41,768 nt of DNA from a virus (Duplodnaviria; Caudoviricetes). The stretch covers positions 1 to 41,768 of IMG/VR virus record IMGVR_UViG_3300034152_000303. One strand, given 5' to 3'. The notes beneath the pieces are model-generated. The model was not told where the DNA came from. It saw only the letters and a program-made list of their open reading frames with translations, and did no database searches. Below, one piece after another: positions 1 to 39,889 of this stretch; position 1 is the first letter of the stretch, and each line of letters begins with the position of its first letter. Both the position numbers and the translations under genes were made by a program.

Positions 1-78
<78 letters not shown>

Positions 79-261
79 GTGAAAGAAAAACAAGCTGGAC
101 TGGCAAGCCAGTAGGAAGGGCAAGGACAGTAAAGAGTACAATGAAAATTGTACCATGCGCCCAATTTGTTACACCCTACAGTCTACAGTCTACATTTGTA
201 CATGGTACACAGCGCGAGTTCTCAGCTGGTGGCATCTCAGCGGCACATTCGGAGGTGCAAC

Positions 262-513
262 ATGAGAATAAGAGAGATTAGAGAACTGCTATTCAACAAG
301 GCGAAAGAACTGTCAGTCTTGGCTGAGAACCTGGCGGAAGATGGCAGCAGAAAGCTGTCAGACAGGGAGAACAAGATGGTCAGGCAAGTGCAGGCAGAAA
401 TCATGATTGACCAACTGGAAGACCTCGTAACTGCCTGGGAGAAATCTGGAGATGAAAGACACTTGGAAGAGTGCCTGACAGTCTTTGACAGAAACATCAA
501 CCTGGAGGTATGA
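262..513 (+). CDS. Hypothetical early protein (83 aa)
   Basis: SD GGAGGT at 251-256 before ATG 262; start trimmed from track ORF 148..513. Confidence 0.8.
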   Translation: MRIREIRELLFNKAKELSVLAENLAEDGSRKLSDRENKMVRQVQAEIMIDQLEDLVTAWEKSGDERHLEECLTVFDRNINLEV

Positions 514-514
514 A

Positions 515-775
515 ATGATACACACCTTCAAGGTCAAGCCAATGAAGTCCAGGTTGTTTCCTCCCGTCTTCCCCGTTGACATGCTGAGATACGATGCCTG
601 TTGGCCTGCCACTACCGAAGCTGCAGTTGACATCGCAGTGAGCCTGAATACAGGAGATTTCTCTGACATTGAAGGCAACACTGTGATTGAACTGAAAGCA
701 GATTGGCCTAAACACTGGCATCCCACCTATGAAAGGTGGAGATCATTCGGCTGGGTTGTAGTCAAGGGAGCGTAG
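515..775 (+). CDS. Phage hypothetical protein with FPxDMLRYD...PTxxRWxSFGW motif
   Basis: SD GGAGGT upstream, ATG 515; motif recalled from other phage early proteins, not searched. Confidence 0.8.
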   Translation: MIHTFKVKPMKSRLFPPVFPVDMLRYDACWPATTEAAVDIAVSLNTGDFSDIEGNTVIELKADWPKHWHPTYERWRSFGWVVVKGA

Positions 776-778
776 CTT

Positions 779-811
779 CCAGTAAATTGTCAAAATTTAA
801 CAAAATGCTGG
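779..811. promoter_or_regulatory. 33-bp palindrome, copy 1
   Basis: CCAGTAAATTGTCAA-AAT-TTAACAAAATGCTGG. Confidence 0.75.
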
Positions 812-862
812 GATGCTCCCAGCTGAGTGCTTGCGCAGAGTAAATAGAAGGGAGGTGATAAA

Positions 863-970
863 ATGAGCAGCTTTCAGTATTACCACACTTCAAGCAGGTT
901 GACTGTCTATGCCCTTGCAGGCTTCATACTCGGAGTCCTGATTGGACTCGGACTGGACGCTATATTTTAG
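863..970 (+). CDS. Small membrane peptide, 35 aa (MSSFQYYHTSSRLTVYALAGFILGVLIGLGLDAIF)
   Basis: Strong SD GGGAGGTG; one hydrophobic helix; below the ORF-track size cutoff. Confidence 0.7.
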   Translation: MSSFQYYHTSSRLTVYALAGFILGVLIGLGLDAIF

Positions 971-993
971 GCAGCTTGCCTGCACCTCCGACT

Positions 994-1035
994 GCCCAGC
1001 TGGGAGAAGTATTCCTGGCTGGGCTTTCGTACTTT
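994..1035 (+). terminator. Probable intrinsic terminator
   Basis: 13-bp hairpin GCCCAGCTGGGAG-AAGTA-TTCCTGGCTGGGC followed by TTTCGTACTTT. Confidence 0.6.
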
Positions 1036-1091
1036 GGAGCTTGCTCCAGTTTATCCACAAATAACTTACATTTTGTTGTTGTAATCTGGGA

Positions 1092-1120
1092 TTGTACATG
1101 ATACAATGTACACATACAAT
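1092..1120 (+). promoter_or_regulatory. Sigma70-like promoter
   Basis: TTGTAC-17 nt-TACAAT in an AT-rich intergenic region upstream of ATG 1165. Confidence 0.6.
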
Positions 1121-1164
1121 GGAGCTGCGGCCAAAACCAACTGCAGAGAAAGGAAGGTGAAAGA

Positions 1165-1344
1165 ATGAAGAAACCCTATCACTTCACTGTACCGTCGGGC
1201 TACAGATGCCACGTTTGCGACAGGCACATTAAAGCAAACCTGGTGGCAAGGAAACAAGAAATCCCTAAACTCTGCTACAAGCATTGGATGCAGAAAGAGT
1301 ACAAGAGGAGGAACAATGTCAAAAGAGGTAAGAGCCTGCACTAA
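1165..1344 (+). CDS. Small putative Zn-binding protein (59 aa, CHVC...CYKH)
   Basis: SD AAGGAAGGTG; translated by hand: MKKPYHFTVPSGYRCHVCDRHIKANLVARK...; not in track. Confidence 0.7.
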   Translation: MKKPYHFTVPSGYRCHVCDRHIKANLVARKQEIPKLCYKHWMQKEYKRRNNVKRGKSLH

Positions 1345-1522
1345 ATGTCCCCTTTACTCCTTTCCTCTCAGAAGATGCAAGCGAGGTCAGGTAAACCCAA
1401 GAACCAAGAAGGCGGCTCTCGACGCTGCAAAAGTCATGGGATCTGCATATGTTTGTGACTATTGCAAATGGAAGGATGCTGTCACAGCGCAATATGGAAG
1501 GGACTATTATGGAATCCTTTAA
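1316..1522 (+). CDS. Small Cys-rich protein (CTKC...CDYC)
   Basis: SD GAGGAGG; two CxxC pairs. Confidence 0.7.
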   Translation: MSKEVRACTKCPLYSFPLRRCKRGQVNPRTKKAALDAAKVMGSAYVCDYCKWKDAVTAQYGRDYYGIL

Positions 1523-1835
1523 CATTAAAGTGGTGGTAAGACACTGCAAGGGAGAGCCAGAAGTCAACCTTTCAATAGAGTATTATCCTGGTGAACCTGG
1601 TTCTTATGACTGCCCGCCCACCAACCCTGACTATGCCATCGTAGATGGTTATGGCCCAGAGGGTCAAATCGAAGAGAAAATCCTCCACTACATAGACGAA
1701 ATCTACGCAGATCAAATCTGGGACAAAATCCAAGAAGCCCTCCAGCTTATAGAAGATGAAAATGAACTGAAGAAGATGGAAGCTGAGAGCATAGCTGAAG
1801 AGATGCATCTTGAACGCTTAAGAGAAGGGAGGTGA
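1509..1835 (+). CDS. Acidic hypothetical protein
   Basis: ATG 1509 overlapping the previous ORF; PGxxDCPP motif. Confidence 0.7.
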   Translation: MESFNIKVVVRHCKGEPEVNLSIEYYPGEPGSYDCPPTNPDYAIVDGYGPEGQIEEKILHYIDEIYADQIWDKIQEALQLIEDENELKKMEAESIAEEMHLERLREGR

Positions 1836-1839
1836 TTTA

Positions 1840-2073
1840 ATGCAAAAGAAGGCGTGCCAGTTTAAGTTGGAAGCACTCGACACTCTTGAACAGAAGAAGG
1901 CAGATATTAAGATAGCCCTCTTGAACGAAGATGATCCCTATGCCAGGATCAAGATGAACAATCGCCTCGCTGGAATTCAAGACGCTATTGAGATAATTCA
2001 AGAGCTCGCTTCCACAGAAGTAGATGTTAAGTATGTGCATATGAGTAAGTCCCCATCCAATTCCAGTAAATAG
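1840..2073 (+). CDS. Hypothetical protein
   Basis: SD GGGAGGT; in operon. Confidence 0.75.
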   Translation: MQKKACQFKLEALDTLEQKKADIKIALLNEDDPYARIKMNNRLAGIQDAIEIIQELASTEVDVKYVHMSKSPSNSSK

Positions 2074-2095
2074 TCAAATTTTGACAAACTTCTGA
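2063..2095. promoter_or_regulatory. 33-bp palindrome, copy 2
   Basis: CCAGTAAATAGTCAA-ATT-TTGACAAACTTCTGA; spans a stop codon and abuts the next RBS. Confidence 0.75.
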
Positions 2096-2109
2096 AAGGA
2101 TTCAAGATT

Positions 2110-2508
2110 ATGCCAGAAGAACCAGAATTTAAGGAAATTGATCTTGAAGCTAAGTACGAAGCTATTGACAAGCGCTTGTTCGATCCTGAAGGCCTTTCAA
2201 GTAAAGGCTTAGAAATGGTAGATCAAGTGCTGAAAGCTTACGGCTTCGACACTTACTTCATCATTGCTACGAACAGCCAGTCGTATGATGACAGCCAAGA
2301 GAAGGGAGGTGGAGAGAACACCCTGCTAATGCAAGCCATTGGCAACGCAAAGGCCATTGCCTTCGGCCTTGTTCACTTCGCCACCAGGCATGATGAACTC
2401 GTTGGCTGTGAGATTGCCAATAGAGTCCTGAGCAAAGCCCTGCACCATTACGCTATGGGCGCACAACTGGTCAAGAAGATCTTTGGAAAGGAAGGAGGTG
2501 AGAACTAA
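2110..2508 (+). CDS. Hypothetical protein
   Basis: SD AAGGA; in operon. Confidence 0.75.
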   Translation: MPEEPEFKEIDLEAKYEAIDKRLFDPEGLSSKGLEMVDQVLKAYGFDTYFIIATNSQSYDDSQEKGGGENTLLMQAIGNAKAIAFGLVHFATRHDELVGCEIANRVLSKALHHYAMGAQLVKKIFGKEGGEN

Positions 2509-2681
2509 TGCCAAAGCTGGAAGGTGTCAAACAGGAGATTGATGTTTACTTCGACAAGGACACAGCCAAGAAGCATCGCTTCACTGGCGGAGCCGGAGAT
2601 GTTGACATTGCAATCTACATTCGCAAAGGTGTCGAGTATCCAGAGAAATTGGAAGTTAACCTGAAACTGCAGGGAGAATAG
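2508..2681 (+). CDS. Small hypothetical protein (57 aa, MPKLEGVKQEIDVYFDKDT...)
   Basis: TAATG coupling and SD AAGGAGGT; fills a gap; not in track. Confidence 0.75.
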   Translation: MPKLEGVKQEIDVYFDKDTAKKHRFTGGAGDVDIAIYIRKGVEYPEKLEVNLKLQGE

Positions 2682-2685
2682 ACCC

Positions 2686-3108
2686 ATGAGCGCAGCGAAA
2701 CTAATCTTCGCTAAGGCCATCTGTCAGCCAGAAGGCAAATCGCTCATAATCCACTGCAAGAATTTCAACGAAGCTGAGAGATTAAGGATTGGCCTTTACA
2801 GGGAGAGAACAAAACTGGAAAACGCCAATCCTACTCTCGCAGCTCGCCTTGTAATCTCCAGACGACAGGCTGATAACAGTGAAGAATGGCTCATAGAAAT
2901 TGGAGCACAAGAGCCTTCCTTCACTGTTACAACTGAAGATGGAGAGCCAGTGGATATTTATGAAGGCGTTTGCGCACAGGCTGATCTTGACGACATAGAG
3001 CGGAGACTCAAGCTGATGAAAGAGGATGGCTACAGTGATGAACAACTGGAAAAGGAGCGCCAAGCAATGCTTGAGGATCTTAAAGGTAACGATACTGCTG
3101 CCGATTAG
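2686..3108 (+). CDS. Hypothetical protein, likely paralog of 3587..4024
   Basis: Shared C-terminal RRLxLMxxDxxSxExxE motif. Confidence 0.75.
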   Translation: MSAAKLIFAKAICQPEGKSLIIHCKNFNEAERLRIGLYRERTKLENANPTLAARLVISRRQADNSEEWLIEIGAQEPSFTVTTEDGEPVDIYEGVCAQADLDDIERRLKLMKEDGYSDEQLEKERQAMLEDLKGNDTAAD

Positions 3109-3155
3109 CGTACTTTATTATTGCATACTTATCATAGCAGAGGAGGTATTCAAGT

Positions 3156-3590
3156 ATGGCAGCAAAAACAACAAAGCCAAGGATAAGTCAAGAGGATTGG
3201 GACAATCTAAATGAAGTTCAACAGGCAGTCCTTTCAAAGCTGGGAATCAGCCCGAAGGAAACTGCAGAACAAAGAAGAAAGAGGGAATTCCTGAATGAGG
3301 CTCAAAGTTATATCCTTGGTGTCTACAATAAATGCGGCTTGTGCAAGAGAGAGTGGAGCCAGAAGTGGAAAATGGTTCCATCCTGGGATAGCAAAGATGG
3401 TGAGCCATATTATCAGGGATTCTGCATACCTAACGGACATTTAATACTGGAAGACAAGCGAGATGATAGGCTTCAGGCAACATGCGAATGCTGCATTAAA
3501 AGACTGATGAAGCTGCCTAAAGTGGAGATAGTCAGAATGCTTGTCGTCTACGCGAGGTATGCAGCTACCTGGGGAGGCAGAAACAAATGA
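3156..3590 (+). CDS. Hypothetical protein, putative Zn-binding (CGLC...CECC)
   Basis: SD GAGGAGGT. Confidence 0.75.
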   Translation: MAAKTTKPRISQEDWDNLNEVQQAVLSKLGISPKETAEQRRKREFLNEAQSYILGVYNKCGLCKREWSQKWKMVPSWDSKDGEPYYQGFCIPNGHLILEDKRDDRLQATCECCIKRLMKLPKVEIVRMLVVYARYAATWGGRNK

Positions 3591-4024
3591 GAGATACCTC
3601 TTTAGAAGCACAAAGGCAAGTGATTATCAAGTGGTTAAACAAAACCCTGGAGCTGGAGACAGGTGAAGAATACTACCTTCAGATTCATGCTAAGGATGAG
3701 CAAAAGCGCCTTCTTAAAATGATCAGAGATGAGATCAAGATCATGGAGAAGGTAGACCCCATTGGAGCCAGTCAAATCTATGCCAAGGGTGTCTTCAAAG
3801 ACAAGCGCTTCTGGGTAGTCCTGAGAAAGGTAGCTGTCTCCTTTACTTCTGTCGGCTTCAAGAAAGACCTTTCCGGAGAGGTGAAGAAGGTGGAGCTTGA
3901 GCATAACTCAGAGGAAATAAGACGCCTTTCCCTTATGAGGCAGGACAGAATGAGCTGGGAAGAAATCGAAGAGATGGAAGGAGCAATCTCCCACACTCTC
4001 AAGGAGATCATCGATGGCAGCTAA
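3587..4024 (+). CDS. Hypothetical protein, likely paralog of 2686..3108
   Basis: ATGA coupling; EIRRLSLMRQDRMSWEEIE. Confidence 0.75.
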   Translation: MRDTSLEAQRQVIIKWLNKTLELETGEEYYLQIHAKDEQKRLLKMIRDEIKIMEKVDPIGASQIYAKGVFKDKRFWVVLRKVAVSFTSVGFKKDLSGEVKKVELEHNSEEIRRLSLMRQDRMSWEEIEEMEGAISHTLKEIIDGS

Positions 4025-4415
4025 CATTAAGATCACAAGTTGGGACATGGAAGGACTCTTCACCTTTGACATAGATGGAATCCCATATGCCTACAGGATT
4101 GATCCTGCTGATGGACATACAGCAAGAAGTCTTATGTCTATATCAGTCAAAAAGTGCTTCAATTATTGTAAGAAGAGAGGCGCCAGGCTGATGCATGTGG
4201 AAGATGACATCTGGAACAGCAATCCTAACAAGCCCTATGAAAGATGGAGAATAGGGCAGAAGGTGATAGCTTACATTGGCATTAACCCTGATACTAAAGG
4301 CAAGGCAGTAATCTTCGAAGCACTCGGGGATAAGAAAGGTCTTGTTGTTAGGATCAAGCTGAACTTGGGTGAGGAAATTGAGAAGCTCAAGTGGATCGTA
4401 AAGACCAGGTTATAA
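4014..4415 (+). CDS. Hypothetical protein
   Basis: SD AAGGAG; in operon. Confidence 0.7.
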   Translation: MAANIKITSWDMEGLFTFDIDGIPYAYRIDPADGHTARSLMSISVKKCFNYCKKRGARLMHVEDDIWNSNPNKPYERWRIGQKVIAYIGINPDTKGKAVIFEALGDKKGLVVRIKLNLGEEIEKLKWIVKTRL

Positions 4416-4416
4416 A

Positions 4417-4524
4417 ATGATAGAAGCAATAACAGATCTCTTCGCAGGAGCCTTCTGGCTTGGACTTATAGTCGCCGCCTATGTACTTGTGAAGAGAGCA
4501 ATCTGCAAATGGAGAAGAAGATGA
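4417..4524 (+). CDS. Small membrane peptide, 35 aa (MIEAITDLFAGAFWLGLIVAAYVLVKRAICKWRRR)
   Basis: Fills a gap; TM helix plus basic tail; ATGA-coupled to the next gene. Confidence 0.6.
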   Translation: MIEAITDLFAGAFWLGLIVAAYVLVKRAICKWRRR

Positions 4525-4784
4525 TCCGTACACCCTTGCAAGAGTGGGCAACTAAGCGGTGGCAATTAGCCGGTAATCTCGAAGCCGCTAAGTCCATGAT
4601 CTTGTGGCACGTTACTCACACGACTCTTACAGCTAAAGAGTTTCATGCACTTAACCGAATCCTAAAGGAGATTAAAAGCATCCAGAATTTAATGAAGCGC
4701 TCCAATAGGATTACAAGAGATATTGTCTTAAAGGAAGTGAGAGATGCCAAGAAAAATCACAATTCCTCCATACGAAAGCTATAG
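4521..4784 (+). CDS. Hypothetical protein
   Basis: ATGA overlap at 4521 (alternative start 4509). Confidence 0.65.
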   Translation: MIRTPLQEWATKRWQLAGNLEAAKSMILWHVTHTTLTAKEFHALNRILKEIKSIQNLMKRSNRITRDIVLKEVRDAKKNHNSSIRKL

Positions 4785-5010
4785 GTATTTGGAACTGTGG
4801 AAGATTACAGCTTGGAAGGACGAGAGCATTTGGAGTGCCAGACCCTTCGGCAACATCAAGGCAGAGCATGAACCCTTGCTTGACAAGCAGGAATTCACAA
4901 CATCTTCCCTTTCTACCAGCATCACTTTCACAGACCAGGACATTCAGCTGGAAGTGTGGACAGAAGAGGAGTTAAAGGAATGGCAGAAAGACCAGAACGA
5001 AAAGACATAA
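4744..5010 (+). CDS. Hypothetical protein
   Basis: SD AAGGA; in operon. Confidence 0.65.
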   Translation: MPRKITIPPYESYRYLELWKITAWKDESIWSARPFGNIKAEHEPLLDKQEFTTSSLSTSITFTDQDIQLEVWTEEELKEWQKDQNEKT

Positions 5011-5834
5011 TGCTGGCATACCCAGCAGATGAGGGCAGGGTTTATCGCTTGAATCACAAAGGTGTGATCCTCTCTCAGCCAAAGTACAACGGAGAAAGGT
5101 GCAGGATAGAGTGGTTTCACGGCGAACCTGTACTTATCTCCAGTTATGGGAATGAATTTCTCTTTCTTGACCATATCAAGGCGAAGCTGTTAGAACTTCC
5201 TCCATACCTACAGTATCCCTTCGATGGAGAGCTTTATCATCATGGCTGGAGCAGACAGAAGATACATTCAATTGTCAGCAGGAAGACCAACAAGCATCCA
5301 GATGTCGAAGGTATTGAATTTCATCTCTTCGATACACAAGATGAAGAGAAGTTCCAGCTCCTACGCATCGCTGACTGCGAAGCAGCCAAATCCTTCTGGT
5401 CTAACTGCGACTTCATGCAGCTTGTGCCAACGGTAGGTATAAAGTATGAAGACTGGCCAAAGATGGCAGGTGAGTACATTGAGCAGGGCTACGAAGGAGC
5501 AATCTTTAGAAATGTCTTCGCTAAGTATGTCAGGAAGAGAAATGTTTCCTTAATCAAGTTCAAGCCAACTGAAACAGATGAATACACAATCCTTGAAGTC
5601 CTTGAAGCTATCTCTAAAGAAGGAGAGCCAAAGGGCATGGCTGGTGCTTTCATGGTAGCTGATCCAGAAGGTAGAGTGTTCAGGGTTGGCGCTGGCAAAA
5701 TGAAGCATCCTGAAAGGATTGATATCTGGAACAAACGAAAGGAGGTGATAGGGCACATTCTTGTAGTAAAGCACGAGCTTATTGCAAATGAAAGTGGAAT
5801 CCCCGTATCAGCAGTAGCAATTAAAATCAAGTGA
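4980..5834 (+). CDS. ATP-dependent DNA ligase (minimal adenylation plus OB domains)
   Basis: Motif I QPKYNGER, III FDGELY, IIIa FHLFD, IV GYEGAIFR, V LIKFKP. Confidence 0.92.
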   Translation: MAERPERKDIMLAYPADEGRVYRLNHKGVILSQPKYNGERCRIEWFHGEPVLISSYGNEFLFLDHIKAKLLELPPYLQYPFDGELYHHGWSRQKIHSIVSRKTNKHPDVEGIEFHLFDTQDEEKFQLLRIADCEAAKSFWSNCDFMQLVPTVGIKYEDWPKMAGEYIEQGYEGAIFRNVFAKYVRKRNVSLIKFKPTETDEYTILEVLEAISKEGEPKGMAGAFMVADPEGRVFRVGAGKMKHPERIDIWNKRKEVIGHILVVKHELIANESGIPVSAVAIKIK

Positions 5835-5845
5835 AAGGAGGACTG

Positions 5846-6160
5846 ATGGACAGAATCTGCGTCAAATGTGGTAGAGTTATGGAGCCAATAAAGAATGGCT
5901 TCGATTTCTTCTTTGACCAAAAGGTCAGGACTTCTGATCTCTGGGGATGCAGGAACTGCAGAAGGTTTCAGATCCACGGCTCTCCCAAAGTCTTTGTAGA
6001 AGCAGCAAACCTAATCCACGGAGAGATAATTACTGATCCTGGGAACCAAAACATGCTGGCAGTGCTGGAGCCAAACCTAATATTGCCTGACTATTTCGAG
6101 AAGTACATGAACCAGTACTACCCGCATTGGACTTGTTGGAAGGAGGACTCTTCAGAATGA
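5846..6160 (+). CDS. Zn-ribbon protein (CVKC...CRNC)
   Basis: SD AGGAGG before ATG 5846. Confidence 0.7.
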   Translation: MDRICVKCGRVMEPIKNGFDFFFDQKVRTSDLWGCRNCRRFQIHGSPKVFVEAANLIHGEIITDPGNQNMLAVLEPNLILPDYFEKYMNQYYPHWTCWKEDSSE

Positions 6161-6351
6161 ACAAGAAAACCCTAAAGAAAGTGTTGTCAATTTACAAAGA
6201 GGGAGTTACCCTCAAGACCTGCGTTGACGTCATCTCCGAAATGTGTAAGGCACAACAGCTTGGAGAGAAAGAAACCGGTGCTGCAGTTCACAAATTCTTC
6301 GAGATGCACCAGGAGTTCCACCACCAGACAGGCTTGAAAACCTGGGGTTGA
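6157..6351 (+). CDS. Hypothetical protein
   Basis: ATGA coupling and SD AAGGAGG. Confidence 0.65.
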   Translation: MNKKTLKKVLSIYKEGVTLKTCVDVISEMCKAQQLGEKETGAAVHKFFEMHQEFHHQTGLKTWG

Positions 6352-6368
6352 TCCCTTGTAAATTTTTG

Positions 6369-6397
6369 TTGACATCTGAAACGATTCATGCGATAAC
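6369..6397 (+). promoter_or_regulatory. Sigma70-like promoter with extended -10
   Basis: TTGACA-17 nt-GATAAC with TG at 6389-6390; leader hairpin GTCTG...CAGAC follows. Confidence 0.55.
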
Positions 6398-6458
6398 CGT
6401 CTGACGTTGGAAAATTGATCCCAAGGACAGACCAGCTGAAAGAAGGGAGGTGATATTC

Positions 6459-6623
6459 TTGGAGACCGTGGGCGTTGCCTTTGTTATACCTAAAGAGAAC
6501 CACCGGTTTCTGAAGATCAAAGCCTACGATATGAGTCTCCATCTGCAAGAACTGTTAGCGAAGATTGTGAATGACTGGTGTGAACAGCAACTAACAAAAG
6601 AAAAGGAGATTCAAAATGGCTGA
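6459..6623 (+). CDS. Ribbon-helix-helix (Arc/ParG/CopG-like) DNA-binding protein, 54 aa
   Basis: SD GGGAGGTG, TTG start; METVGVAFVIPKENHRFLKIKAYDMSLHLQELLAKIVNDW fits beta-strand plus two helices; not in track. Confidence 0.7.
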   Translation: METVGVAFVIPKENHRFLKIKAYDMSLHLQELLAKIVNDWCEQQLTKEKEIQNG

Positions 6624-7035
6624 AGAAACCACGCAGCAAGAAGCACCGAAGAAGAAACCCAAGCGCCTCGAAAAAGACCTGGTGAAGCACCCAGGCAAAG
6701 TGGCCATCAGCGTCATTGGTGGGGAGAAGGGTGAGATGATCTTCGATCCCAAGACCCTACCGAAAAGCATCCAGGATCAGCTTCCCGCCTTCGCCTTGAA
6801 CCACAAGCTCGGCGACGCAGCGGCCGGTCGCTCAGGCAAAGAAGCCGAAGAAGCCATCACGAAAGTCTGGGACGGTATGATGGCTGGAGACTGGACAGTT
6901 CGTGCCCCGGCGCAGCCGAAAGTGGCAGTCAACGAAGTTGCCCAGAATTTCGACAAGCTCTCAGAGAAAGAGAAGAAAGCTGCGGCTCCGCTTCTCAAGT
7001 CTTTGGGTCTTTCGATTCCTGGCATCACCGATTGA
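6616..7035 (+). CDS. Hypothetical protein, Lys/Ala-rich, possibly abundant or DNA-binding
   Basis: SD AAGGAG; visibly more C/G-ending codons than neighbours. Confidence 0.8.
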   Translation: MAEETTQQEAPKKKPKRLEKDLVKHPGKVAISVIGGEKGEMIFDPKTLPKSIQDQLPAFALNHKLGDAAAGRSGKEAEEAITKVWDGMMAGDWTVRAPAQPKVAVNEVAQNFDKLSEKEKKAAAPLLKSLGLSIPGITD

Positions 7036-7062
7036 TAGGTACAACCATCTTGTACCTTTCAT

Positions 7063-9476: not shown

Positions 9477-9531
9477 CGGGCCCGGCCAGCCATTAGCAAC
9501 TGCATCCTCTGTAGAGGTGGCTGGTTCTCAT

Positions 9532-11732: not shown

Positions 11733-12176
11733 TTGAAAAAGAAAGGTAATCGTCCATTCCGGGATAGAGGTCAGCAACCGATCATGCCTGGCCAAAACAT
11801 CATGACTAACATCAACCCAGCAAATTGTCCTGCATTTGTCTGCGGCCAATGCGGAGGCAACATCTTCGTAGATGCAAAGAGGCTTCACTTTGTGTCTGCC
11901 CTTCAGAGCCCAATTGGAAGGGAAGGCATTGGCTTTACACCTGCTGGCTATCTCTGCGCAGGATGCGGTAGCCTGAACACTATGGTTAAAGAAGGAGAAG
12001 AACGTGGCCCAGAAATCCCAGACCATTTTAAGGATAACCAACCTCAAGACGGGGGAAGAGGTGGCCTTGGACTTGGAGTATCAGGCTCAGGAACTCAGGA
12101 GAATAAACAAGAGTCTGATGGAGATCAACCAGAATCTGAAAAGACTGCTGACGATCCTGGAGACCCCTACCCTTAA
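11733..12176 (+). CDS. Zn-ribbon protein with disordered C-terminal tail
   Basis: SD AAGGAGG, TTG start; CGQC...VSALQSP...CAGC. Confidence 0.75.
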   Translation: MKKKGNRPFRDRGQQPIMPGQNIMTNINPANCPAFVCGQCGGNIFVDAKRLHFVSALQSPIGREGIGFTPAGYLCAGCGSLNTMVKEGEERGPEIPDHFKDNQPQDGGRGGLGLGVSGSGTQENKQESDGDQPESEKTADDPGDPYP

Positions 12177-17289: not shown

Positions 17290-17681
17290 CACCTATCTCC
17301 TTTCCGATTCATAGATATTTTAACAGCGGTTTCAATACTTCCCCTTAGTTCCCCCACTGCTGTACATAGTTGTTGTACTGCCATGTTTATACTTCTTACT
17401 TCCTCTCGCAGAAGTCCTTCAATAGTTGAAAATTTATTTCTCCCTTCTGCAAGCGATTCGTCAATACTCTTGTGTTTGGCAGAGCAACCTTCGTGAAAGC
17501 CTGATAAATCCCTTTTAACTTTATCAAGGCAATCATCAAGACTCTGCACCCTTGCCTCTTGTTTGTCCACTGCAGTTTTCACTTCTTTAACTCCCGAGTC
17601 TATCTTCTTAAGAAAGAGAGTTAGTAACCCGCAAGCTATGATGAAAATTGCTCCGGCCAACCAGTACCATACATCAGCCAT
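17289..17681 (-). CDS. N-terminal TM plus coiled-coil protein (holin-associated)
   Basis: WYWLAGAIFIIACGLLTLF followed by a coiled coil. Confidence 0.7.
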   Translation of the reverse strand: MADVWYWLAGAIFIIACGLLTLFLKKIDSGVKEVKTAVDKQEARVQSLDDCLDKVKRDLSGFHEGCSAKHKSIDESLAEGRNKFSTIEGLLREEVRSINMAVQQLCTAVGELRGSIETAVKISMNRKGDR

Positions 17682-30975: not shown

Positions 30976-31641
30976 CTATGCATCCCAACAGCTTGAGACG
31001 TGCGGAACTCTGTTCCTGCTGACCCAGGCTCTGGTTGCATTGATTCCAGAATGTTTACTATTCCAGTTAAAGGATGCGTCGAAGTGTATTCTTGTATTCA
31101 CTTTTCCATCATCCTCACCGTCTTCCTTCTGGTTGTATATCAAGAAGGCTGCACCATTCACCAGACAGCGATAGTGCACCTCTTCCGGAAGCCAGTCGGG
31201 TTCGTCGTTGTCACTGGATAATACTGGGGGATTCTGATAGTAGATGAGGGCCAGACTGACGGAAATCTCAGGTATATACTGATACCAGAGATTGCGGCCT
31301 TCCAGCGCTACAGCCTCAAGCTCACCGGCACTATCCATGCTTTCATTGCCGGTTTTGCTGGCGTATGCATCAGCAAGAAGATCGAGAGATGGGTACACTT
31401 CCAGATCGTAATTCAACACCCTTGATAGCCTTCCGCTGAAGCCACCACTTACATTTGTCAGGGGAGCATATGCTTGTCCTGCAATCGTGGACACTGATCC
31501 AAGGCGCTTCAAATCCGGGAGTTTCACTTCTCCCGCTGTGCGAAGTGCAGCCTGATGGATGAAGTCGTCCAGTTGTGCTGAGCTATAGCTTTCATCCTGA
31601 ATCTCGTTCGCCAGGGCGGCTCTTAGCTGTGCTTTATTCAT
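30976..31641 (-). CDS. Head-tail adaptor-like protein
   Basis: Start MNKAQLRAAL; YYQNP..L..D.DEP..LPE..H; position after capsid genes. Confidence 0.7.
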   Translation of the reverse strand: MNKAQLRAALANEIQDESYSSAQLDDFIHQAALRTAGEVKLPDLKRLGSVSTIAGQAYAPLTNVSGGFSGRLSRVLNYDLEVYPSLDLLADAYASKTGNESMDSAGELEAVALEGRNLWYQYIPEISVSLALIYYQNPPVLSSDNDEPDWLPEEVHYRCLVNGAAFLIYNQKEDGEDDGKVNTRIHFDASFNWNSKHSGINATRAWVSRNRVPHVSSCWDA

Positions 31642-31653
31642 CTTCAGAATCCC

Positions 31654-31686
31654 CCAGTAAAACGTCAAACATTGACAAACTACTTA
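31654..31686. promoter_or_regulatory. 33-bp palindrome, copy 6
   Basis: CCAGTAAAACGTCAA-ACA-TTGACAAACTACTTA; fills the intergenic gap. Confidence 0.75.
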
Positions 31687-33760: not shown

Positions 33761-34732
33761 CTAATCAAGTTCTCCCGCCAAGTACTTGTCGTAAATTTCA
33801 GGCGGGACTTTTCCAAGTTCATCTTCCGGTAGATTGTCGATCCGCTCAGCAGTCCAGCCAGTCTTCTGTGCATCTTGGGAACCTGTAAAGGGGGCAATCG
33901 ACCCAGGTGCCGCCGGAGGCTTACCTTTAGTCTTGTCTTTGGGTTTCCCAGTTTTGCCCTCTTCACCAGTTTTTCCAGCCTCACCTGTCTCGGGACTGGC
34001 TTCCTTGGTGTAAGAAGGGTGATACTCTTTGATCAGGCCGTACAGGTATTTATAGGGATTGGGTTGTGTCCAGATGTGCTGTTCGACCCTGAGCGCCGCG
34101 AGGCCGAAATCAATCCCCTGATCCTTGACAAGCTGATCAGCAACGGCAGCTACAATGTCCTGGGTGTTGCTTTCTGAACAGACGTCTGCAACGTCTTTGT
34201 ACTGCTCCATTCCAAGCATCTGTTCCAACATCAGGTCATACATGCCACCCCTCTCAGCTGAAATCTGTTTCAATTCAGCCTCGATTTGCTCCGCCTCTCC
34301 AGGACCTTCAAGCTCCACTTTCGTAGGCTTGTCACCCTCGCCACCACCTTTGTCTTCCAAGTCCTCATCATCGTCGTCAGAGACCCTTGAAGTTGCCGTC
34401 GCTACCAGCTTCCCTTGATTCCTCTCCAGCCTTTTGACTGCAGTATCCAGGTTGGCCAGTTGCCGTTTCTGTGAAAGGGACAATGATCTGTACTCCGAAA
34501 CCTGCCGCTGCAGGCCATCGTACTCGGACTTCTTCAGTGTGACGGTTTCTTCTTCTTCTTCAGCAGGAGTGTCAGTAGGCTTATTACCTTCATCTTCCCC
34601 GCCCTCGTCAGTATCTGTTTCGGTGTCCTGAGTACCAGCCTTCGAGCTCTCAAGCGCAGCAGTCAACTCATCCTCATAGGAATCGTCAGTATCAGTGTCC
34701 TGCGTGTCGTCCTTGATTACTTGCTCTCCCAT
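33761..34732 (-). CDS. Scaffolding protein
   Basis: Acidic, coiled coil; between portal and capsid. Confidence 0.75.
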   Translation of the reverse strand: MGEQVIKDDTQDTDTDDSYEDELTAALESSKAGTQDTETDTDEGGEDEGNKPTDTPAEEEEETVTLKKSEYDGLQRQVSEYRSLSLSQKRQLANLDTAVKRLERNQGKLVATATSRVSDDDDEDLEDKGGGEGDKPTKVELEGPGEAEQIEAELKQISAERGGMYDLMLEQMLGMEQYKDVADVCSESNTQDIVAAVADQLVKDQGIDFGLAALRVEQHIWTQPNPYKYLYGLIKEYHPSYTKEASPETGEAGKTGEEGKTGKPKDKTKGKPPAAPGSIAPFTGSQDAQKTGWTAERIDNLPEDELGKVPPEIYDKYLAGELD

Positions 34733-34735
34733 TGG

Positions 34736-36604
34736 TTACTCTCCTTTGCTTCGATTTGCAGTTGCTTTGACTTTCATTTCTTCGATTTCTAATTCCCTCT
34801 CTTTCAATCTAAGTTCTTGTGCTCTCACCTCCTCCCAATAAGCAGTCACTCTCTGCTTCACAGAGAATGGAACGTTGAGGTAATCTAACAAAATGTCTGG
34901 TGGAATCGTGCCAGGATTATTATGTGCAAACTCTCCAAGCACGTTCGCTATATAAATCCTCATACTTGCAGTCTCAGCAACCTCATCCACTTCTACGTCA
35001 AATTCAAGAGCTGAAATATCATTAAACCCTTGAACTTGCGGATTCAGTTGGCTGTTGATCTGCAAAAGCTGCAAGCCAGTTTGACCAGTAATTCTAATAA
35101 CTTCTGGCTCTCTGACAAATTGCTGAATTAAAGACAGCAGGAGCCGCGCTGCCTGAAATCTCGACTCTCTGAAATTATCGAACAAGATGTACAGCACAGC
35201 GTAGCCGGTCTGCTGTCTGGCATGGATTGTAGATGTTGCTTCCCTGCTGGAAGTCTCGACGCCCATTAAGTCGTCATGAATACCACCTGTATTCTTCATA
35301 CTTTGGTGGAACACCTGATCCAGCATCTGATACACAGGGCTTATCGTCGGCTGCTGCTCAAACTTCACCTTGTCAATACCACCGCGCTGTACTTCAAGGT
35401 GAAAGTTCGGTTCTGACGAGCTTTGTTCATAACGCTCTATGTCAAGGATAACTCCCTGCTCATGAATCAAGATCCCCTTAGGCAGCGTTTGTAATAAGTG
35501 GATCAACTGCCGTCTGATCGTGTTCAACGCCCTTTGAGGGTCTTTCATCATAGTAACAGCGCTGAACCAGGTGTTGTTGTCGTCATCCTTGTACGCACCG
35601 AAGAGGACGCCTGGGATGCCAGCCCAGTTCAAAGTACTGCGTCCTTCCTCTATAACGTACTGGTCGCTGAAAATCCTATAGAAAGGCGCCTTCCTATAAG
35701 ATCTCGTAACGGCCTCAGCCTCCCACTCTTTTATCTGCTGAGCCGACATAGCAAATACCTCATTGCCATCTGAGTCGAGTGGGATACCTTGGGAGACGAC
35801 CTCTTTAAATTGCTTATACTCCTCTGCTGTCAGTCCTTCAAGGACTCCAGAAATTGGGTTCACAAACCAGAAGACTTCCTCATACTTGTAATACCAACAC
35901 TCTATAACTCTATAAAGATCCTTTGCTTCATTCCAGAAATATGGGCCATCAGGTTTCGCAGGCGCATTTTTTAACACTTCAGTAGGGAAGTTCGGTGCCA
36001 GTATTTTCAGCTCTTCTTCGGTTAGCCACTGCTCCAGAAAGATGAACCTGTGATCTCCATCAGGCCCAAGGTCAAGACTGCTTGCATTTGGATCAAGGTA
36101 AAACTGATCACTTCTCCACCTTTTAGATTTAATCTTTGGCTGGAATGGATTGCTTTTGTCTATCCAGAACCACATTAAGCTTCTGCCGCCTTTGCAGGTA
36201 TGCTCGAAGCACTTGGTCTGCTTTCTCTGTATCTTCAACTTCTTCTGATAATGCTTTAGTGTGCCATTCATCAGCTCTGTCAGAACTTCGTCCTCTTGAG
36301 TGACAGGCACCACCATTGCAGTATTCGGACTCTGCGCTGCAAGACCAACCAGCATATCAATCTTCGGCTTAACCTCATTAAATACTGGATTTGGTCTATC
36401 CTCTGCAGCCAGTTTATCCAGCACCGATTGTGTATCCTGATCGCCGGCATAAAACTGGTAATCTTCCAGACTTTGATCTCTATAAAGAGTTTCTGGAATA
36501 CTATTAACAGAGTCAGAAAACCATGTCAAAATCTTCTGGTGTTCTTTACTGACATCCGCATCAGGATATATCTCAATTTGCTGAGCTCTTTCTGCTTGAG
36601 CCAT
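34736..36604 (-). CDS. Portal protein (P22-like)
   Basis: FYAGDQ, RP..FNEVKPKIDMLVG, MKDPQRALN; follows TerL. Confidence 0.88.
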   Translation of the reverse strand: MAQAERAQQIEIYPDADVSKEHQKILTWFSDSVNSIPETLYRDQSLEDYQFYAGDQDTQSVLDKLAAEDRPNPVFNEVKPKIDMLVGLAAQSPNTAMVVPVTQEDEVLTELMNGTLKHYQKKLKIQRKQTKCFEHTCKGGRSLMWFWIDKSNPFQPKIKSKRWRSDQFYLDPNASSLDLGPDGDHRFIFLEQWLTEEELKILAPNFPTEVLKNAPAKPDGPYFWNEAKDLYRVIECWYYKYEEVFWFVNPISGVLEGLTAEEYKQFKEVVSQGIPLDSDGNEVFAMSAQQIKEWEAEAVTRSYRKAPFYRIFSDQYVIEEGRSTLNWAGIPGVLFGAYKDDDNNTWFSAVTMMKDPQRALNTIRRQLIHLLQTLPKGILIHEQGVILDIERYEQSSSEPNFHLEVQRGGIDKVKFEQQPTISPVYQMLDQVFHQSMKNTGGIHDDLMGVETSSREATSTIHARQQTGYAVLYILFDNFRESRFQAARLLLSLIQQFVREPEVIRITGQTGLQLLQINSQLNPQVQGFNDISALEFDVEVDEVAETASMRIYIANVLGEFAHNNPGTIPPDILLDYLNVPFSVKQRVTAYWEEVRAQELRLKERELEIEEMKVKATANRSKGE

Positions 36605-36606
36605 GT

Positions 36607-38112
36607 TTACACTCCCATCCAGCTGTGACTACCTCTTGGCTTTTTACCGTAGTTACTGGGACCCGGCTGAGTAACTTTCTTTCTTCCCTTGTCTTTGTTC
36701 TTACTCCATGCTTGGTGAGCGCTTCCGTAAAAGTACTCGGAGATAGCCAGAGCATCGGCGATGTTGGGAGAAGCAAAACCTCTCTTCTTCATATCATCCT
36801 TGCTTTCAAGCTGAATCGCTCCGTTTCGAAACTTATATGTAGGACAAGATAGCTCATTCGCCAGCTCGTGCCCAAGGTGAATGTCAACTCCACCTATCTT
36901 TACACTTTCATCTGGGAAGCTATACCTTCTATGAAGGCAATTCTCTCTGATTTCTCCCCAGAGTTGATCTCTAAGTCTATGAAACTTTTCAGGTTCCCAC
37001 GCCTTCCAGGCAGTATTTACCCCATGAACCTTCTTATTGCCCAGTCCTCTTGGGTCAGTATGGTGCCAGTCAATAACTCCACCACCTACACCAATTTCAT
37101 CTATACCAACTCCAGAGGCTTCAAGATCATTAAACTTTGTCAGGATATGCCAGGCAAGCTCAATAGTATTGACGCCTTTGTAAGTATCCCAACCAAATAT
37201 CTTCATCCCTCGCCTGGGAAGAATAATGCTATCATCTTCCCCATAACGAGCAACATCGACACCCAGATAAAGTGGCCAACCTTCATCAACATCAATAGGA
37301 TTGCCAATACAGTCAACAGCCCAAGACAGAGGAATGTAAGTATTCTCATCATCCAAGGGCGGTTCACCCGCAACCCTGATTCGCCATATGTTAGAATCTT
37401 CGCCATACTTGTACCTAAAGTAGTCAACCATCTCCTTGGTGACATTCTCACTATCACGAGAGTCCCAGTGATGCTTTCGCCATTTCTTACCAATCTTTGG
37501 ATCAAACTGTGTTTCGTGAAAGTACCCTGTATTTTTAGTTGGGTTTCCAATAAGTAAAACCCTATTGTCCTCTTGCGTCATAGCACCTTCAAGTGGAATA
37601 AAGACTGGGTCTGGCACACCACTTGCTTCGTCCACAACTATCAGAAGATGTTCACTATGAAGGCCAGCTAATGTTTCAGCTTGTTCCTCTTTACTGGCTT
37701 TAACAGATGGCGAAATTGCCCTGCACCACCATTCTTTAGGCGCCTGCTTGTGGAACATCTTATCTTTCTGCAGTACAAATTCGTCGGCAAGAACTGAGAT
37801 TCTAAGCCACTTTGAAAGTTCTGACCAGAGAATGTCAGCGAGCTGGCGCGCAGTTGGAGCAGTACAAGCAACCTTTGGATAAGCTCTTGTCGACATAAAC
37901 CAGAGGATAATCCAGGCTGCGAAAGCGTCTTTTCCAGTACCATGACCACTCCTTATACTTGTTCTCTTCGATTTACCGAAGTCCGCAAGTGCTTGAGCTT
38001 GCTGTCTGGAGGGCCCTGGTTTTGGAACCCTGCTCCAGTCAAACGCTTCCTTGACAAACAGTAATGGACTTGCAGCCCATTCAGCAAGCTTTTCTTTTAC
38101 ATAGTGAGCCAT
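36607..38112 (-). CDS. terL: Terminase large subunit
   Basis: RSGHGTGKD, VVDEASG, IGNP, LGVDVARYGEDDS, SPNIADAL. Confidence 0.93.
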   Translation of the reverse strand: MAHYVKEKLAEWAASPLLFVKEAFDWSRVPKPGPSRQQAQALADFGKSKRTSIRSGHGTGKDAFAAWIILWFMSTRAYPKVACTAPTARQLADILWSELSKWLRISVLADEFVLQKDKMFHKQAPKEWWCRAISPSVKASKEEQAETLAGLHSEHLLIVVDEASGVPDPVFIPLEGAMTQEDNRVLLIGNPTKNTGYFHETQFDPKIGKKWRKHHWDSRDSENVTKEMVDYFRYKYGEDSNIWRIRVAGEPPLDDENTYIPLSWAVDCIGNPIDVDEGWPLYLGVDVARYGEDDSIILPRRGMKIFGWDTYKGVNTIELAWHILTKFNDLEASGVGIDEIGVGGGVIDWHHTDPRGLGNKKVHGVNTAWKAWEPEKFHRLRDQLWGEIRENCLHRRYSFPDESVKIGGVDIHLGHELANELSCPTYKFRNGAIQLESKDDMKKRGFASPNIADALAISEYFYGSAHQAWSKNKDKGRKKVTQPGPSNYGKKPRGSHSWMGV

Positions 38113-38113
38113 A

Positions 38114-39550
38114 CTAATCTTCGTATCCGATCATTCTTCTTATGAACTTCTCAGCATCTTCCAAACTTGAAAATTCATTAAGCGTGTCCCACTTTCCTGA
38201 CTTCTTTTTACCTTCAACCCAGTAAGGCGGATGTGTAACAGTGTGTCTTTCCTTCCTATGAATGATTCTACCAGGGCCAGCGATATCACCAGGCTTTAGC
38301 CCACCAGATATTTCGCCTTCTACTATCTTTCTTGGCTTCTTTAAAATTTCTGTAACTGGTGTTTCATAGGAACTGGTTCTTACATATCCAGGCTCTATAC
38401 CTCTAAGCCTAACCATTTTTACAGCTTCTTCGGTGAAAGGATCAACAGCTCTTTCTGACATTGTAACATACTCTTCGTCCAAACGAACTTTTGGCTTAAG
38501 AGATGTTGGAGTAGAAGCTTTCGTTCCCTTAAGGATATTTTCTTTCCTTCCTTGTGAAAGCATCTTCTTAATCATGGCGTCAGTTAGTTTAATAACCTTC
38601 TTCTCGCCAATAGAGGATTCACCTGAAGCACGCTTCTTTCCTCTTCCACCAACATCAAGTGCAGCAACCTCTTGAGGAACTCCAGTTCTCTTTGAATAAA
38701 GACTTAAACGGTTTTCAGCTATTCTTCTATGAAGGCCTCCACCTTCTTTAACAGATTTTGCAATTTTTGCTGCTTCTGTTAATACTTCCGGCAGTGCTTC
38801 CTTTCCTTCTATCATAGCTTGAGCTTGTGTTCTTCTGAAGAGATTCCCAAAATCTACAGCTTCACCAGCCTTTTCTATCTGCTCACCGACCATTCTGGCA
38901 TGTTGTTCATGAGGAGCAACCCAATATCCTGAAGACATATAATCTGGCTCCTGTCTAAGATTCTTTGCGACAGATCTCATAGTTGCACTTCTGACTAATT
39001 CCACGTCATCTGGATCAGGAGCCCACTGTCTTCCGTGTGTAAATTCATGCCCAAGTATATTCTTTACCCCTCTTCTTTTAGAATAATGAGCATACGGAGT
39101 AAGCAATATTTCCTGTGTACTGGGTATGTATTTTGCGGCAAAATGACCCATTCCACCACTAACAAATTTAATGTCAGATATTCTATCAAGTTCTTTCTGT
39201 GGTATAGTCTTGAGAAGCTCAACGCCCTTTTGTATAATTTCTTCTGGAACCTTTGTAGCTCTGCCTGTTCCGGTAAATCTTGCGATAGCAATCCTTCTTC
39301 CAATATTAGCAGGGCCAGTTCCGGCACCAGGGCTTCCAGCTAACATGGCATCGAACACTGCTCTTGTCACTTCTGTAGAAGAAACATCTCCTTTTCCTCT
39401 AAGAGCAGCACCAACCTTTGCCATATTCTCAAGAGGTTCTTTAAAGAAAGTCTGATATATGTGCCTGCCCAGTTTACCCCACTTTCGCAGATTCTCCACG
39501 TTCTGCTCGGTAGAACCAAGCTGCACAGCTGCTCTTGGCTTATTAGCCAT
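38114..39550 (-). CDS. Protein with zincin-like metallopeptidase motif
   Basis: ILGHEFTHGRQ plus downstream Y...PHEQHAR. Confidence 0.65.
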   Translation of the reverse strand: MANKPRAAVQLGSTEQNVENLRKWGKLGRHIYQTFFKEPLENMAKVGAALRGKGDVSSTEVTRAVFDAMLAGSPGAGTGPANIGRRIAIARFTGTGRATKVPEEIIQKGVELLKTIPQKELDRISDIKFVSGGMGHFAAKYIPSTQEILLTPYAHYSKRRGVKNILGHEFTHGRQWAPDPDDVELVRSATMRSVAKNLRQEPDYMSSGYWVAPHEQHARMVGEQIEKAGEAVDFGNLFRRTQAQAMIEGKEALPEVLTEAAKIAKSVKEGGGLHRRIAENRLSLYSKRTGVPQEVAALDVGGRGKKRASGESSIGEKKVIKLTDAMIKKMLSQGRKENILKGTKASTPTSLKPKVRLDEEYVTMSERAVDPFTEEAVKMVRLRGIEPGYVRTSSYETPVTEILKKPRKIVEGEISGGLKPGDIAGPGRIIHRKERHTVTHPPYWVEGKKKSGKWDTLNEFSSLEDAEKFIRRMIGYED

Positions 39551-39855: not shown

Positions 39856-39856
39856 C

Positions 39857-39889
39857 TCAGCACCTCATCACGTTTTGACAATTTACTGC
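39857..39889. promoter_or_regulatory. 33-bp palindrome, copy 7 (one arm degenerate)
   Basis: TCAGCACCTCATCAC-GTT-TTGACAATTTACTGC; covers a stop codon and the next RBS. Confidence 0.6.

What the first reader, a model, noticed from the sequence alone, without database searches (positions are those of the whole stretch)
212..836. 31-nt long-range RNA duplex that loops out the first two genes
Seen: 212-242 and 806-836 pair at 29 of 31 positions. Five pairs are G-U on the + strand; on the other strand they would be A-C mismatches. That pattern suggests selection on a + strand RNA rather than a DNA inverted repeat. The stem encloses 563 nt holding ORFs 262..513 and 515..775. The 3' arm can alternatively fold locally (GCTGGGA-TGC-TCCCAGC, 807-823) and overlaps palindrome copy 1. 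Inference: an RNase III-type processing stalk like those flanking rRNA, a stabilised or excised two-gene RNA, or a conformational switch.
Basis: partly seen in the sequence, partly recalled or inferred. Interest (0 to 1): 0.8.

Follow-up and report, generated by a model that had tools for sequence, protein, structure and literature searches.

The report
rRNA-style stem clamping two phage genes
In an uncultured tailed phage, the untranslated stretches on either side of two small early genes are complementary over 31 bases and are predicted to zip together in the messenger RNA, as similar gene-enclosing stems do in related phages, likely so that a host enzyme that cuts double-stranded RNA can release the two-gene message with paired ends, much as ribosomal RNAs are cut from their precursor.

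Summary
Positions 212-242 and 806-836 pair at 29 of 31 (24 Watson-Crick, 5 G-U). This is the strongest long-range pairing in the contig (score 64; best of 1,119 shuffles 45). It encloses ORF1 and ORF2 and leaves ORF1's ribosome site free.

No relative holds this DNA, so its own covariation is untested. The design is a family trait, though. 21 of 30 homologues of one early gene sit in such stems, against 0 of 37 paralogues. An 11-sequence alignment shows two-sided changes at 22 of 27 pairs. Non-Watson-Crick positions are 42 G-U to 3 A-C. A homologue of ORF1 has its own stem in L073. Of 29 family leaders, 13 carry an rRNA-type boxA-like word; the window's truncated leader does not.

Best reading (0.55): a leader-trailer-type helix, likely cut by host RNase III to give an end-paired two-gene mRNA. 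Cleavage is untested and my RNase III motif test was inconclusive. A switch is poorly supported. My searches found no paper on this in phages, but this scan has noted the same class in several other phages.

The parts
212..242 (+). 5' arm of the long-range helix (extends weakly to 206)
806..836 (+). 3' arm of the long-range helix (extends weakly to 842)
250..256 (+). Shine-Dalgarno GGAGGTG of ORF1, inside the loop; predicted 71% unpaired with the helix and 1% unpaired if the 5' arm is removed
   Evidence: sequence; partition function
262..513 (+). ORF1, 83 aa, predicted three-helix protein of unknown function; same family as the second stem-enclosed gene of L073 (668-997)
   Evidence: pairwise alone not significant
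515..775 (+). ORF2, 86 aa, phrog_11674 (unknown function); fold matches uncharacterised proteins of Caulobacter Ccr phages and Acidovorax phage ACP17
779..811 (.). Imperfect palindrome (YGTCA-n5-TRACR core); related copies at 2063, 7143, about 25174 and 31654 and in relatives; overlaps the first bases of the 3' arm; role unknown
807..823 (+). Local alternative hairpin in the 3' arm (-10.7 kcal/mol; probability 0 when the 5' arm is present)
220..221 (+). Best-scoring RNase III dyad (predicted cuts after 221 and after 828, leaving 222-828 with a 21-column terminal stem); prediction only
   Evidence: score not discriminating
863..970 (+). ORF3, 35 aa, hydrophobic, outside the helix; its Shine-Dalgarno is at 847-856
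981..991 (+). 11-base perfect complement of 249-259 (covers the ORF1 Shine-Dalgarno); pseudoknotted to the main helix; may be chance
   Evidence: score 38, p about 0.05 per 1.5 kb
994..1035 (+). 13-bp hairpin (-21.9 kcal/mol) followed by UUUCGUACUUU, a possible end of the ORF1-3 transcript; judged by eye, not called by the terminator scan
   Evidence: not listed
166..200 (+). Heptamer repeats (ctacagt), like one arm of the family's tandem-repeat inverted repeat; contains a weak promoter-like GTTACA-17-TACATT (by eye, not called by the scan)
   Evidence: sequence; not listed

Best explanation
The two untranslated flanks of ORF1-ORF2 are complementary and are predicted to pair in the early mRNA as a 31-bp helix of the leader-trailer type, which host RNase III likely cuts across both strands, and this would release a roughly 600-base two-gene message with paired ends and an open ribosome site. 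Shown: complementarity far above chance; G-U bias toward the coding strand; arms placed outside the reading frames; the same layout, with covariation, in related phages. Inferred: that one transcript spans both arms, that the helix forms in the cell, that RNase III cuts it (best register: after 221 and after 828), and that the retained stem protects the 5' and 3' ends and uncouples ORF1-2 from ORF3. In many relatives an rRNA-type boxA-like word lies just before the first such stem, which would let host Nus factors deliver the 5' arm to the 3' arm as in rRNA synthesis; no such word is in the window's available leader.
For: Window: score 64 against a shuffle maximum of 45; pair probabilities near 1; 19 nt from stem to start codon and 30 nt from stop to stem, within the family's usual ranges. 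Family, gene-anchored: 21 of 30 geneA-type homologues have an enclosing stem scoring 52 or more (9 of the 18 not used in the profile), against 0 of 37 replication-module paralogues (maximum 38). With Watson-Crick-only boundaries, 16 stems have 414 WC, 42 G-U, 3 A-C and 18 other positions; 18 DNA-type inverted repeats have 741, 42, 21 and 112. Real 16S leader-trailer helices, bounded by the G-U-permissive scan, give 388, 45, 2 and 26. Structure-blind alignment of 11 orthologous loci: 91.8% of cells paired, 22 of 27 pairs with two-sided change, slid controls 42-52%. The two invariant U-A pairs there lie 7 apart, the spacing of the two proximal-box position-2 pairs (geometry inferred from PMC3867540 section 7 and PMC1540722). 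ORF1's homologue in L073 has its own 28-bp stem in tandem with the geneA stem. boxA-like word at 11 or more of 12 positions in 13 of 29 geneA leaders, against 29 of 2,196 ORF leaders and 0 of 77 paralogue leaders. The exact word GYTCTTTGACAA lies in the 16S-23S spacer of 8 of 15 rRNA loci examined. B. subtilis RNase III cuts 10-36-bp duplexes whose cut sites lie up to 505 nt apart in mRNAs (PMC11780869 section 24).
Against: No nucleotide homologue of this stem was found, so covariation of the window's own arms is untested. The proximal-box score for this stem is 6, joint lowest of 14 (p=0.19). Its best register is off-centre, and the central register 230|231 has G-C pairs at both position-4 sites, which suppress cleavage by the E. 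coli enzyme. The family-level enrichment (p=0.017) is weak, because real rRNA stems did not beat the same null (p=0.47). No boxA-like word in 76-261 (best 9 of 12). ORF2 homologues in L068/L167/L175 and L001-L003 showed no enclosing stem. Nine of 30 geneA homologues score below 52. The host and its RNase III are unknown. A frame is open across 78-281, over the 5' arm; it is probably not a gene, but this was not excluded.
Confidence: 0.55

Rival explanations
1. The helix forms but is not cut. It acts as a clamp that shields the 5' end, isolates the folding of the two-gene domain and keeps the ORF1 ribosome site away from the complement at 981-991.
For: The 5' arm starts a few bases after a weak promoter-like site (by eye). 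The central register has G-C catalytic antideterminants. The Shine-Dalgarno is 71% unpaired with the helix and 1% without the 5' arm. In E. coli 16S the leader-trailer helix is itself essential for active subunits (PMC10250234, abstract only).
Against: A regular 31-bp helix exceeds the 22 bp of an idealised RNase III substrate (PMC3867540). Tandem, abutting stems in L073 and G019 suit a cut-apart precursor. The 981-991 match is only borderline above chance.
Confidence: 0.22
2. A conformational switch. The 3' arm first folds locally (777-813 or 807-823), and the choice between local and long-range folds, perhaps set by a protein on the palindrome or by translation, turns ORF1 or read-through on or off.
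For: Two local hairpins and one alternative long-range pairing exist.
Against: The local folds are -9.5 and -10.7 kcal/mol against -53.9; their equilibrium probability is 0. Both arms lie outside the ribosome sites. In several relatives the palindrome lies outside the stem.
Confidence: 0.1
3. A DNA-level element: an inverted repeat or single-stranded DNA hairpin that marks a gene cassette for recombination or exchange.
For: The phage encodes a Sak4-like annealing protein. With DNA parameters the + strand is also slightly favoured (-28.7 against -24.5). Different genes are enclosed in different relatives.
Against: A 42:3 G-U to A-C bias toward the coding strand, unlike the family's DNA-type inverted repeats. 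Arms stop short of the ribosome site and start after the stop codon. The arms of different cassettes are unrelated in sequence. No site-specific recombinase among the 33 proteins scanned.
Confidence: 0.06
4. The helix brings the cut ends together for ligation into a circular two-gene mRNA.
For: The geometry allows it; archaeal pre-rRNA is a recalled precedent.
Against: No bulge-helix-bulge motif (only 1x1 mismatches). No RNA ligase among the 33 proteins scanned. Relatives have bacterial sigma70-type promoters (by eye).
Confidence: 0.04
5. A chance or relic complementarity with no present function.
For: No homologue of these arms is available to show conservation.
Against: About 2e-4 expected per window, with the family's exact layout and an enclosed-gene homologue.
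Confidence: 0.03

Closest known systems
Leader-trailer (RNase III processing) helices and boxA/Nus complex of bacterial rRNA operons (PMC10250234 abstract; PMC8632103 passages)
   Same: A helix of about 30 bp formed by the two flanks of an enclosed RNA. Same size, score and G-U bias as 14 real 16S helices measured here (27-48 columns, scores 53-66). Tandem stems in relatives, and a boxA-like word before the first stem in 13 of 29 relatives' leaders.
   Different: Encloses protein-coding genes of a phage, not rRNA. No boxA-like word in the window's own available leader. Cleavage and Nus binding are untested.
Long-range intramolecular RNase III sites in Bacillus subtilis mRNAs (PMC11780869, section 24 read)
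   Same: mRNA duplexes of 10-36 bp between distant segments, cut with a 2-bp stagger.
   Different: The span here (about 600 nt between predicted cuts) exceeds the 505-nt maximum reported there. Both arms are intergenic and bracket whole genes, so cutting would release an intact message rather than interrupt one.
RNase III sites of phage T7 early mRNA (R1.1 as model substrate: PMC1540722 sections read; PMC3867540 passage; the rest recalled)
   Same: A phage early transcript likely matured by host RNase III.
   Different: T7 sites are local hairpins between genes (recalled); here the helix is long-range and closes around the genes.
Type I toxin mRNAs with ribosome-site sequestration relieved by processing or refolding (PMC13000454, passages)
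   Same: Long-range pairing within an mRNA that can alter access to the ribosome site.
   Different: The main helix leaves the ribosome site open. No antitoxin RNA was seen, and ORF1 and ORF2 are not small membrane toxins.

Membership tests
Bacterial RNase III double-cut substrate | Helix of at least about 22 bp (11 bp for one half-site) | tested here: met
   31 columns, 29 paired; requirement from PMC3867540 and PMC1540722
Bacterial RNase III double-cut substrate | Proximal box: A-U/U-A at position 2 and no G-C at position 4 | tested here: inconclusive
   Register 220|221 meets both; score 6, p=0.19. Family p=0.017, but the rRNA positive control gave p=0.47.
Bacterial RNase III double-cut substrate | RNase III-dependent cuts with a 2-nt 3' overhang | not testable with these tools
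   Needs RNA end mapping or enzyme assay
rRNA-type leader-trailer helix with boxA/Nus delivery | Complementary flanks enclosing the product RNA on the transcribed strand | tested here: met
rRNA-type leader-trailer helix with boxA/Nus delivery | Compensatory base changes among homologues | tested here: inconclusive
   Met for the family's geneA stem; no homologue of the window's own arms
rRNA-type leader-trailer helix with boxA/Nus delivery | boxA upstream of or at the 5' arm | tested here: inconclusive
   Absent from window 76-261 (best 9 of 12), but the contig is cut at 76 and in L073 the word precedes only the first of two stems; present in 13 of 29 geneA leaders
rRNA-type leader-trailer helix with boxA/Nus delivery | Encloses an rRNA | tested here: not met
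   Two ORFs inside; no Rfam hit. It works like such a helix but is not one.
rRNA-type leader-trailer helix with boxA/Nus delivery | NusB/NusE/SuhB binding | not testable with these tools
   Needs binding or ChIP assay
Archaeal bulge-helix-bulge processing/circularisation site | Two 3-nt bulges on opposite strands around a 4-bp helix (recalled) | tested here: not met
   Only two 1x1 mismatches
Type I toxin-like 5'-3' fold-back mRNA | Long-range pairing hides the ribosome site in the primary transcript | tested here: not met
   Shine-Dalgarno 71% unpaired in nested models; the pseudoknotted 981-991 pairing cannot be modelled together with the helix

The most novel reading that the evidence does not exclude
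This phage family expresses its earliest proteins from a counterfeit rRNA operon. A host-type boxA recruits the Nus/SuhB chaperone, each gene or gene pair gets its own leader-trailer helix, and RNase III cuts the precursor into end-paired messages. New helices are built around newly recruited genes, and the window's stem is one such unit whose boxA-bearing first unit lies beyond the broken contig end.
Probability: 0.33. Interest if true: 0.72.

Novelty: new variant of a known kind. Interest (0 to 1): 0.5.

Why it matters
If true, phages reuse the rRNA-precursor design (long-range flank pairing, possibly Nus-assisted, then RNase III) to package protein-coding messages, which the papers I found describe only for rRNA or for sites inside cellular mRNAs. 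It gives a simple portable cassette (two 30-base arms) for testing whether end-pairing stabilises a bacterial mRNA and whether boxA helps distant arms meet outside rRNA. It also marks which unknown early genes the phage treats specially. Interest is moderate because the enzymatic step is untested, the enclosed proteins have no known function, and this scan has already noted the same class in other phages.

Tried and rejected
No own genome is held. The nearest record G001 matches only window 34686-41768 at 99.5%. No DNA match in GenBank phages. No non-coding nucleotide match to 76-6500 in the loci fetched by then. No sequencing run was listed and no RNA holder was listed; this is not evidence either way. 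Rfam: none.

ORF1: no Pfam hit above cut-off, no PHROG, no tblastn match in phages, and no clear structural match (best Z 6.7). ORF2: no PDB match by Foldseek, nothing at 0.9 or above in the Atlas. Pairwise ORF1 versus L073 gene B was not significant; only profiles link them. The ORF1-family profile hit 1 of 47 records, G015 (= L073). A viral scan with close ORF1 homologues found none. L240 holds a third ORF1-family gene, but its contig ends 45 nt after the stop in a local hairpin, no enclosing stem is visible, and it shares no tblastx match with the window: inconclusive.

The second duplex 9496-9525/11943-11972 has no equivalent in 72 relatives. The 19-base extension of the boxA-like word was found in 7 of 81 genomes, none beside an rRNA gene by Rfam in the 9 loci scanned; the rRNA link came only from anchoring on 16S. 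The word contains TTGACA; by eye I saw no -10 box 17 nt downstream in five leaders checked, so a promoter reading was set aside but not formally tested.

The proximal-box score was rejected as proof after its positive control failed. Literature searches that returned no paper describing gene-enclosing stems in phage mRNA: (listings and abstract starts only; the library lacks most subscription papers). No supplementary files were read.

Full report
Setting. The window is a contig of a tailed phage. Early and replication genes lie on the + strand (ligase, exonuclease, Sak4-like protein, ParB-methylase, DNA polymerase, primase) and head genes on the - strand. It begins with 75 A's and ends inside a gene. 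The near-identical record G001 runs 121 bases past the right end, so the contig is incomplete. The host is unknown; family contigs sit in bins titled Bacillota, Desulfobacterales, Micrarchaeota, archaeon and uncultured bacterium.

The observation. It is exact: 24 Watson-Crick pairs, 5 G-U pairs and 2 mismatches, at -53.9 kcal/mol on + and -42.9 on -. It is the best ungapped duplex among pairs up to 6 kb apart on either strand (score 64, next 53). None of 1,119 regional shuffles exceeded 45 and none of 29 whole-window shuffles exceeded 51. In five transcript models the core pairs have probability near 1 and the local hairpin 0. The 5' arm ends 19 nt before the ORF1 start, leaving GGAGGTG in the loop. 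The 3' arm begins 30 nt after the ORF2 stop. A strong hairpin at 994-1024 may end the unit after ORF3 (not called by the scan).

No direct homologue. No DNA relative of this region was found, so covariation of these arms could not be tested. I turned to the phage family, collected through the Sak4-like gene and extended by fetching 40 stretches.

The layout is a family trait. Scanning 64 regions on both strands gave 128 stems scoring 46 or more, and 28 rows passed the filters. I kept 16 and dropped 12: 2 duplicates, 4 opposite-strand mirrors, 5 rows in or next to the tandem-repeat inverted repeat, and 1 operator-like pair. One kept stem (L132 904-936) encloses a doubtful ORF. Most kept stems are 26-33 columns, intergenic, and tightly enclose a coding-strand gene. 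Re-bounded with Watson-Crick pairs only, they hold 42 G-U, 3 A-C and 18 other non-canonical positions. The family's 18 DNA-type inverted repeats hold 42, 21 and 112. Because stems were first found with a G-U-permissive score, I also anchored on the gene. Twelve stems enclose one protein family ('geneA', a distant paralogue of window 6616-7035). Of 30 geneA-type homologues, 21 have an enclosing stem scoring 52 or more (9 of the 18 not in the profile); 0 of 37 replication-module paralogues do. A protein-only scan returned 19 loci. All 14 close ones (10 distinct) have the stem, one is truncated, and four distant ones score 28-53. In a structure-blind MAFFT alignment of 11 loci, all 11 put their arms in the same register. 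There, 91.8% of cells pair, 22 of 27 pairs change on both sides, and slid controls give 42-52%. The structure was taken from these same sequences and they are related, so the shuffle figures are not probabilities.

Link to the window's own stem. L073 has two abutting stems, one around geneA and one around a 109-aa gene. That gene and ORF1 are not significantly similar pairwise. A two-sequence profile retrieved 18 further proteins. A profile of those 18 alone ranks the L073 gene (E 1e-23) and ORF1 (1e-16) first among 6,545 ORFs, and seeded profiles find each other at 4e-9 and 4e-7. Some circularity remains because the 18 were found with the joint profile. So an ORF1-family gene is stem-enclosed in two phages with different arms. 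ORF2 homologues elsewhere showed no enclosing stem, and the third ORF1 homologue is inconclusive.

rRNA resemblance. Many geneA leaders carry GYTCWTTGACAA. A 12-position motif, tuned after I saw it, matches at 11 or more positions in 13 of 29 leaders; 12 of the 13 lie 1-102 nt before the 5' arm. The comparison figures are 1 of 29 on the antisense strand, 0 of 77 paralogue leaders and 29 of 2,196 ORF leaders. The published gammaproteobacterial boxA consensus is GYTCTTTAANA (PMC5725501, passages). I then examined 15 16S loci from the order of G028, chosen because that bin holds a family contig and not because the host is known. Fourteen leaders and 12 spacers match at 11 or more, 8 spacers carry GYTCTTTGACAA exactly, and 14 have a leader-trailer helix of 27-48 columns scoring 53-66. 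In those 16S leaders the word lies inside the 5' arm itself, so it could be a processing-stalk motif as well as a Nus site. The window has no such word in 76-261 (best 9 of 12), nor does the second stem of L073 (7 of 12). Delivery of the leader arm by the Nus/SuhB/S4 complex is discussed in PMC8632103 (passages). In E. coli the helix is essential and boxA gives 2- to 3-fold (PMC10250234, abstract).

RNase III. The length fits (PMC3867540 section 7 and passages; PMC1540722 abstract, first parts of sections 9 and 22, and passages). Long-range mRNA substrates are known (PMC11780869 section 24). RNase III cuts can stabilise or destabilise a message (PMC5371410, passages). In the geneA alignment the invariant U-A pairs lie 7 apart, as the two proximal-box position-2 pairs should. 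A proximal-box score over 14 independent stems gave 97, against 88 for flipped polarity and a null of 90.7 (p=0.017); the window scored 6 (p=0.19). But 14 real, related 16S helices scored 98 against a null of 97.3 (p=0.47), so the test is inconclusive. A double cut at the best register would leave 222-828 with a terminal stem and an open ribosome site.

Switch. The local folds are weak. The one asymmetric result is that removing the 5' arm lets 981-991 pair with the ORF1 ribosome site (1% unpaired against 71%). That match is borderline by chance (p about 0.05) and I treat it as a lead only.

Verdict. The feature is real and very likely an RNA helix of a family-wide design. Cleavage by RNase III is the most likely use (0.55), an uncut clamp is next (0.22), and a switch, DNA cassette, circle or chance share the rest. 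It works like an rRNA leader-trailer helix but is not one. My eight topic searches found no paper on gene-enclosing stems in phage mRNA. This scan's own notes report the same class, with and without boxA, in other phages; these are unchecked and are not counted as support. Novelty: new variant of a known kind. Interest 0.5.

Noticed in passing
window 9496-9525 with 11943-11972: A second long-range duplex (score 53, 8 G-U, 0 A-C) spanning 2.4 kb. The 3' arm is inside ORF 11733-12176. About 0.02 expected per window; no equivalent in 72 relatives.
   Followed up: partly
window 31222-31249 with 31632-31659: An inverted repeat (16 perfect pairs plus extension) around a late gene, abutting a palindrome copy; similar energy on both strands.
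   Followed up: no
window 779, 2063, 7143, about 25174, 31654; L015, L016, L057, L059: A family-wide palindrome with a GTCA-n5-TGAC core and CCAG/CTGG or CTTA/TAAG flanks, mostly intergenic; looks like a protein-binding site.
   Followed up: partly
L024 1056-1318, L068 522-922, L073 1121-1385, L081 656-1094, L087 1307-1637; window 166-200: An inverted repeat built of 5-9-base tandem units around an AT-rich spacer, present in many relatives near the start of the early region; possibly the origin or the genome ends. The window seems to hold only one arm.
   Followed up: partly
window 136-153, 1094-1111, 7039-7055, 17362-17378: GTACA-n-TGTAC palindromes, two of them ahead of early transcription units.
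   Followed up: no
window 1051-1059: TTATCCACA, a perfect DnaA box (motif recalled), between the first unit and the promoter-like sites at 1079-1120.
   Followed up: no
window 104-131 with 901-925: A weaker outer pairing (-30 kcal/mol) that would nest around the main helix; 76-112 could instead be the end of a truncated upstream gene.
   Followed up: partly
L209 7645-8115, L073 142-582 and window 6616-7035: 'geneA', an unannotated 140-190 aa family found stem-enclosed in many relatives, with a distant paralogue in the replication module that is never enclosed; no Pfam or PHROG match for the members scanned.
   Followed up: partly
L248-L250 (G028:C124 15320-16461): Three copies of an identical stretch of about 44 bases ending in the boxA-like word within 1.2 kb of a bacterial bin, not beside an rRNA gene.
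   Followed up: no
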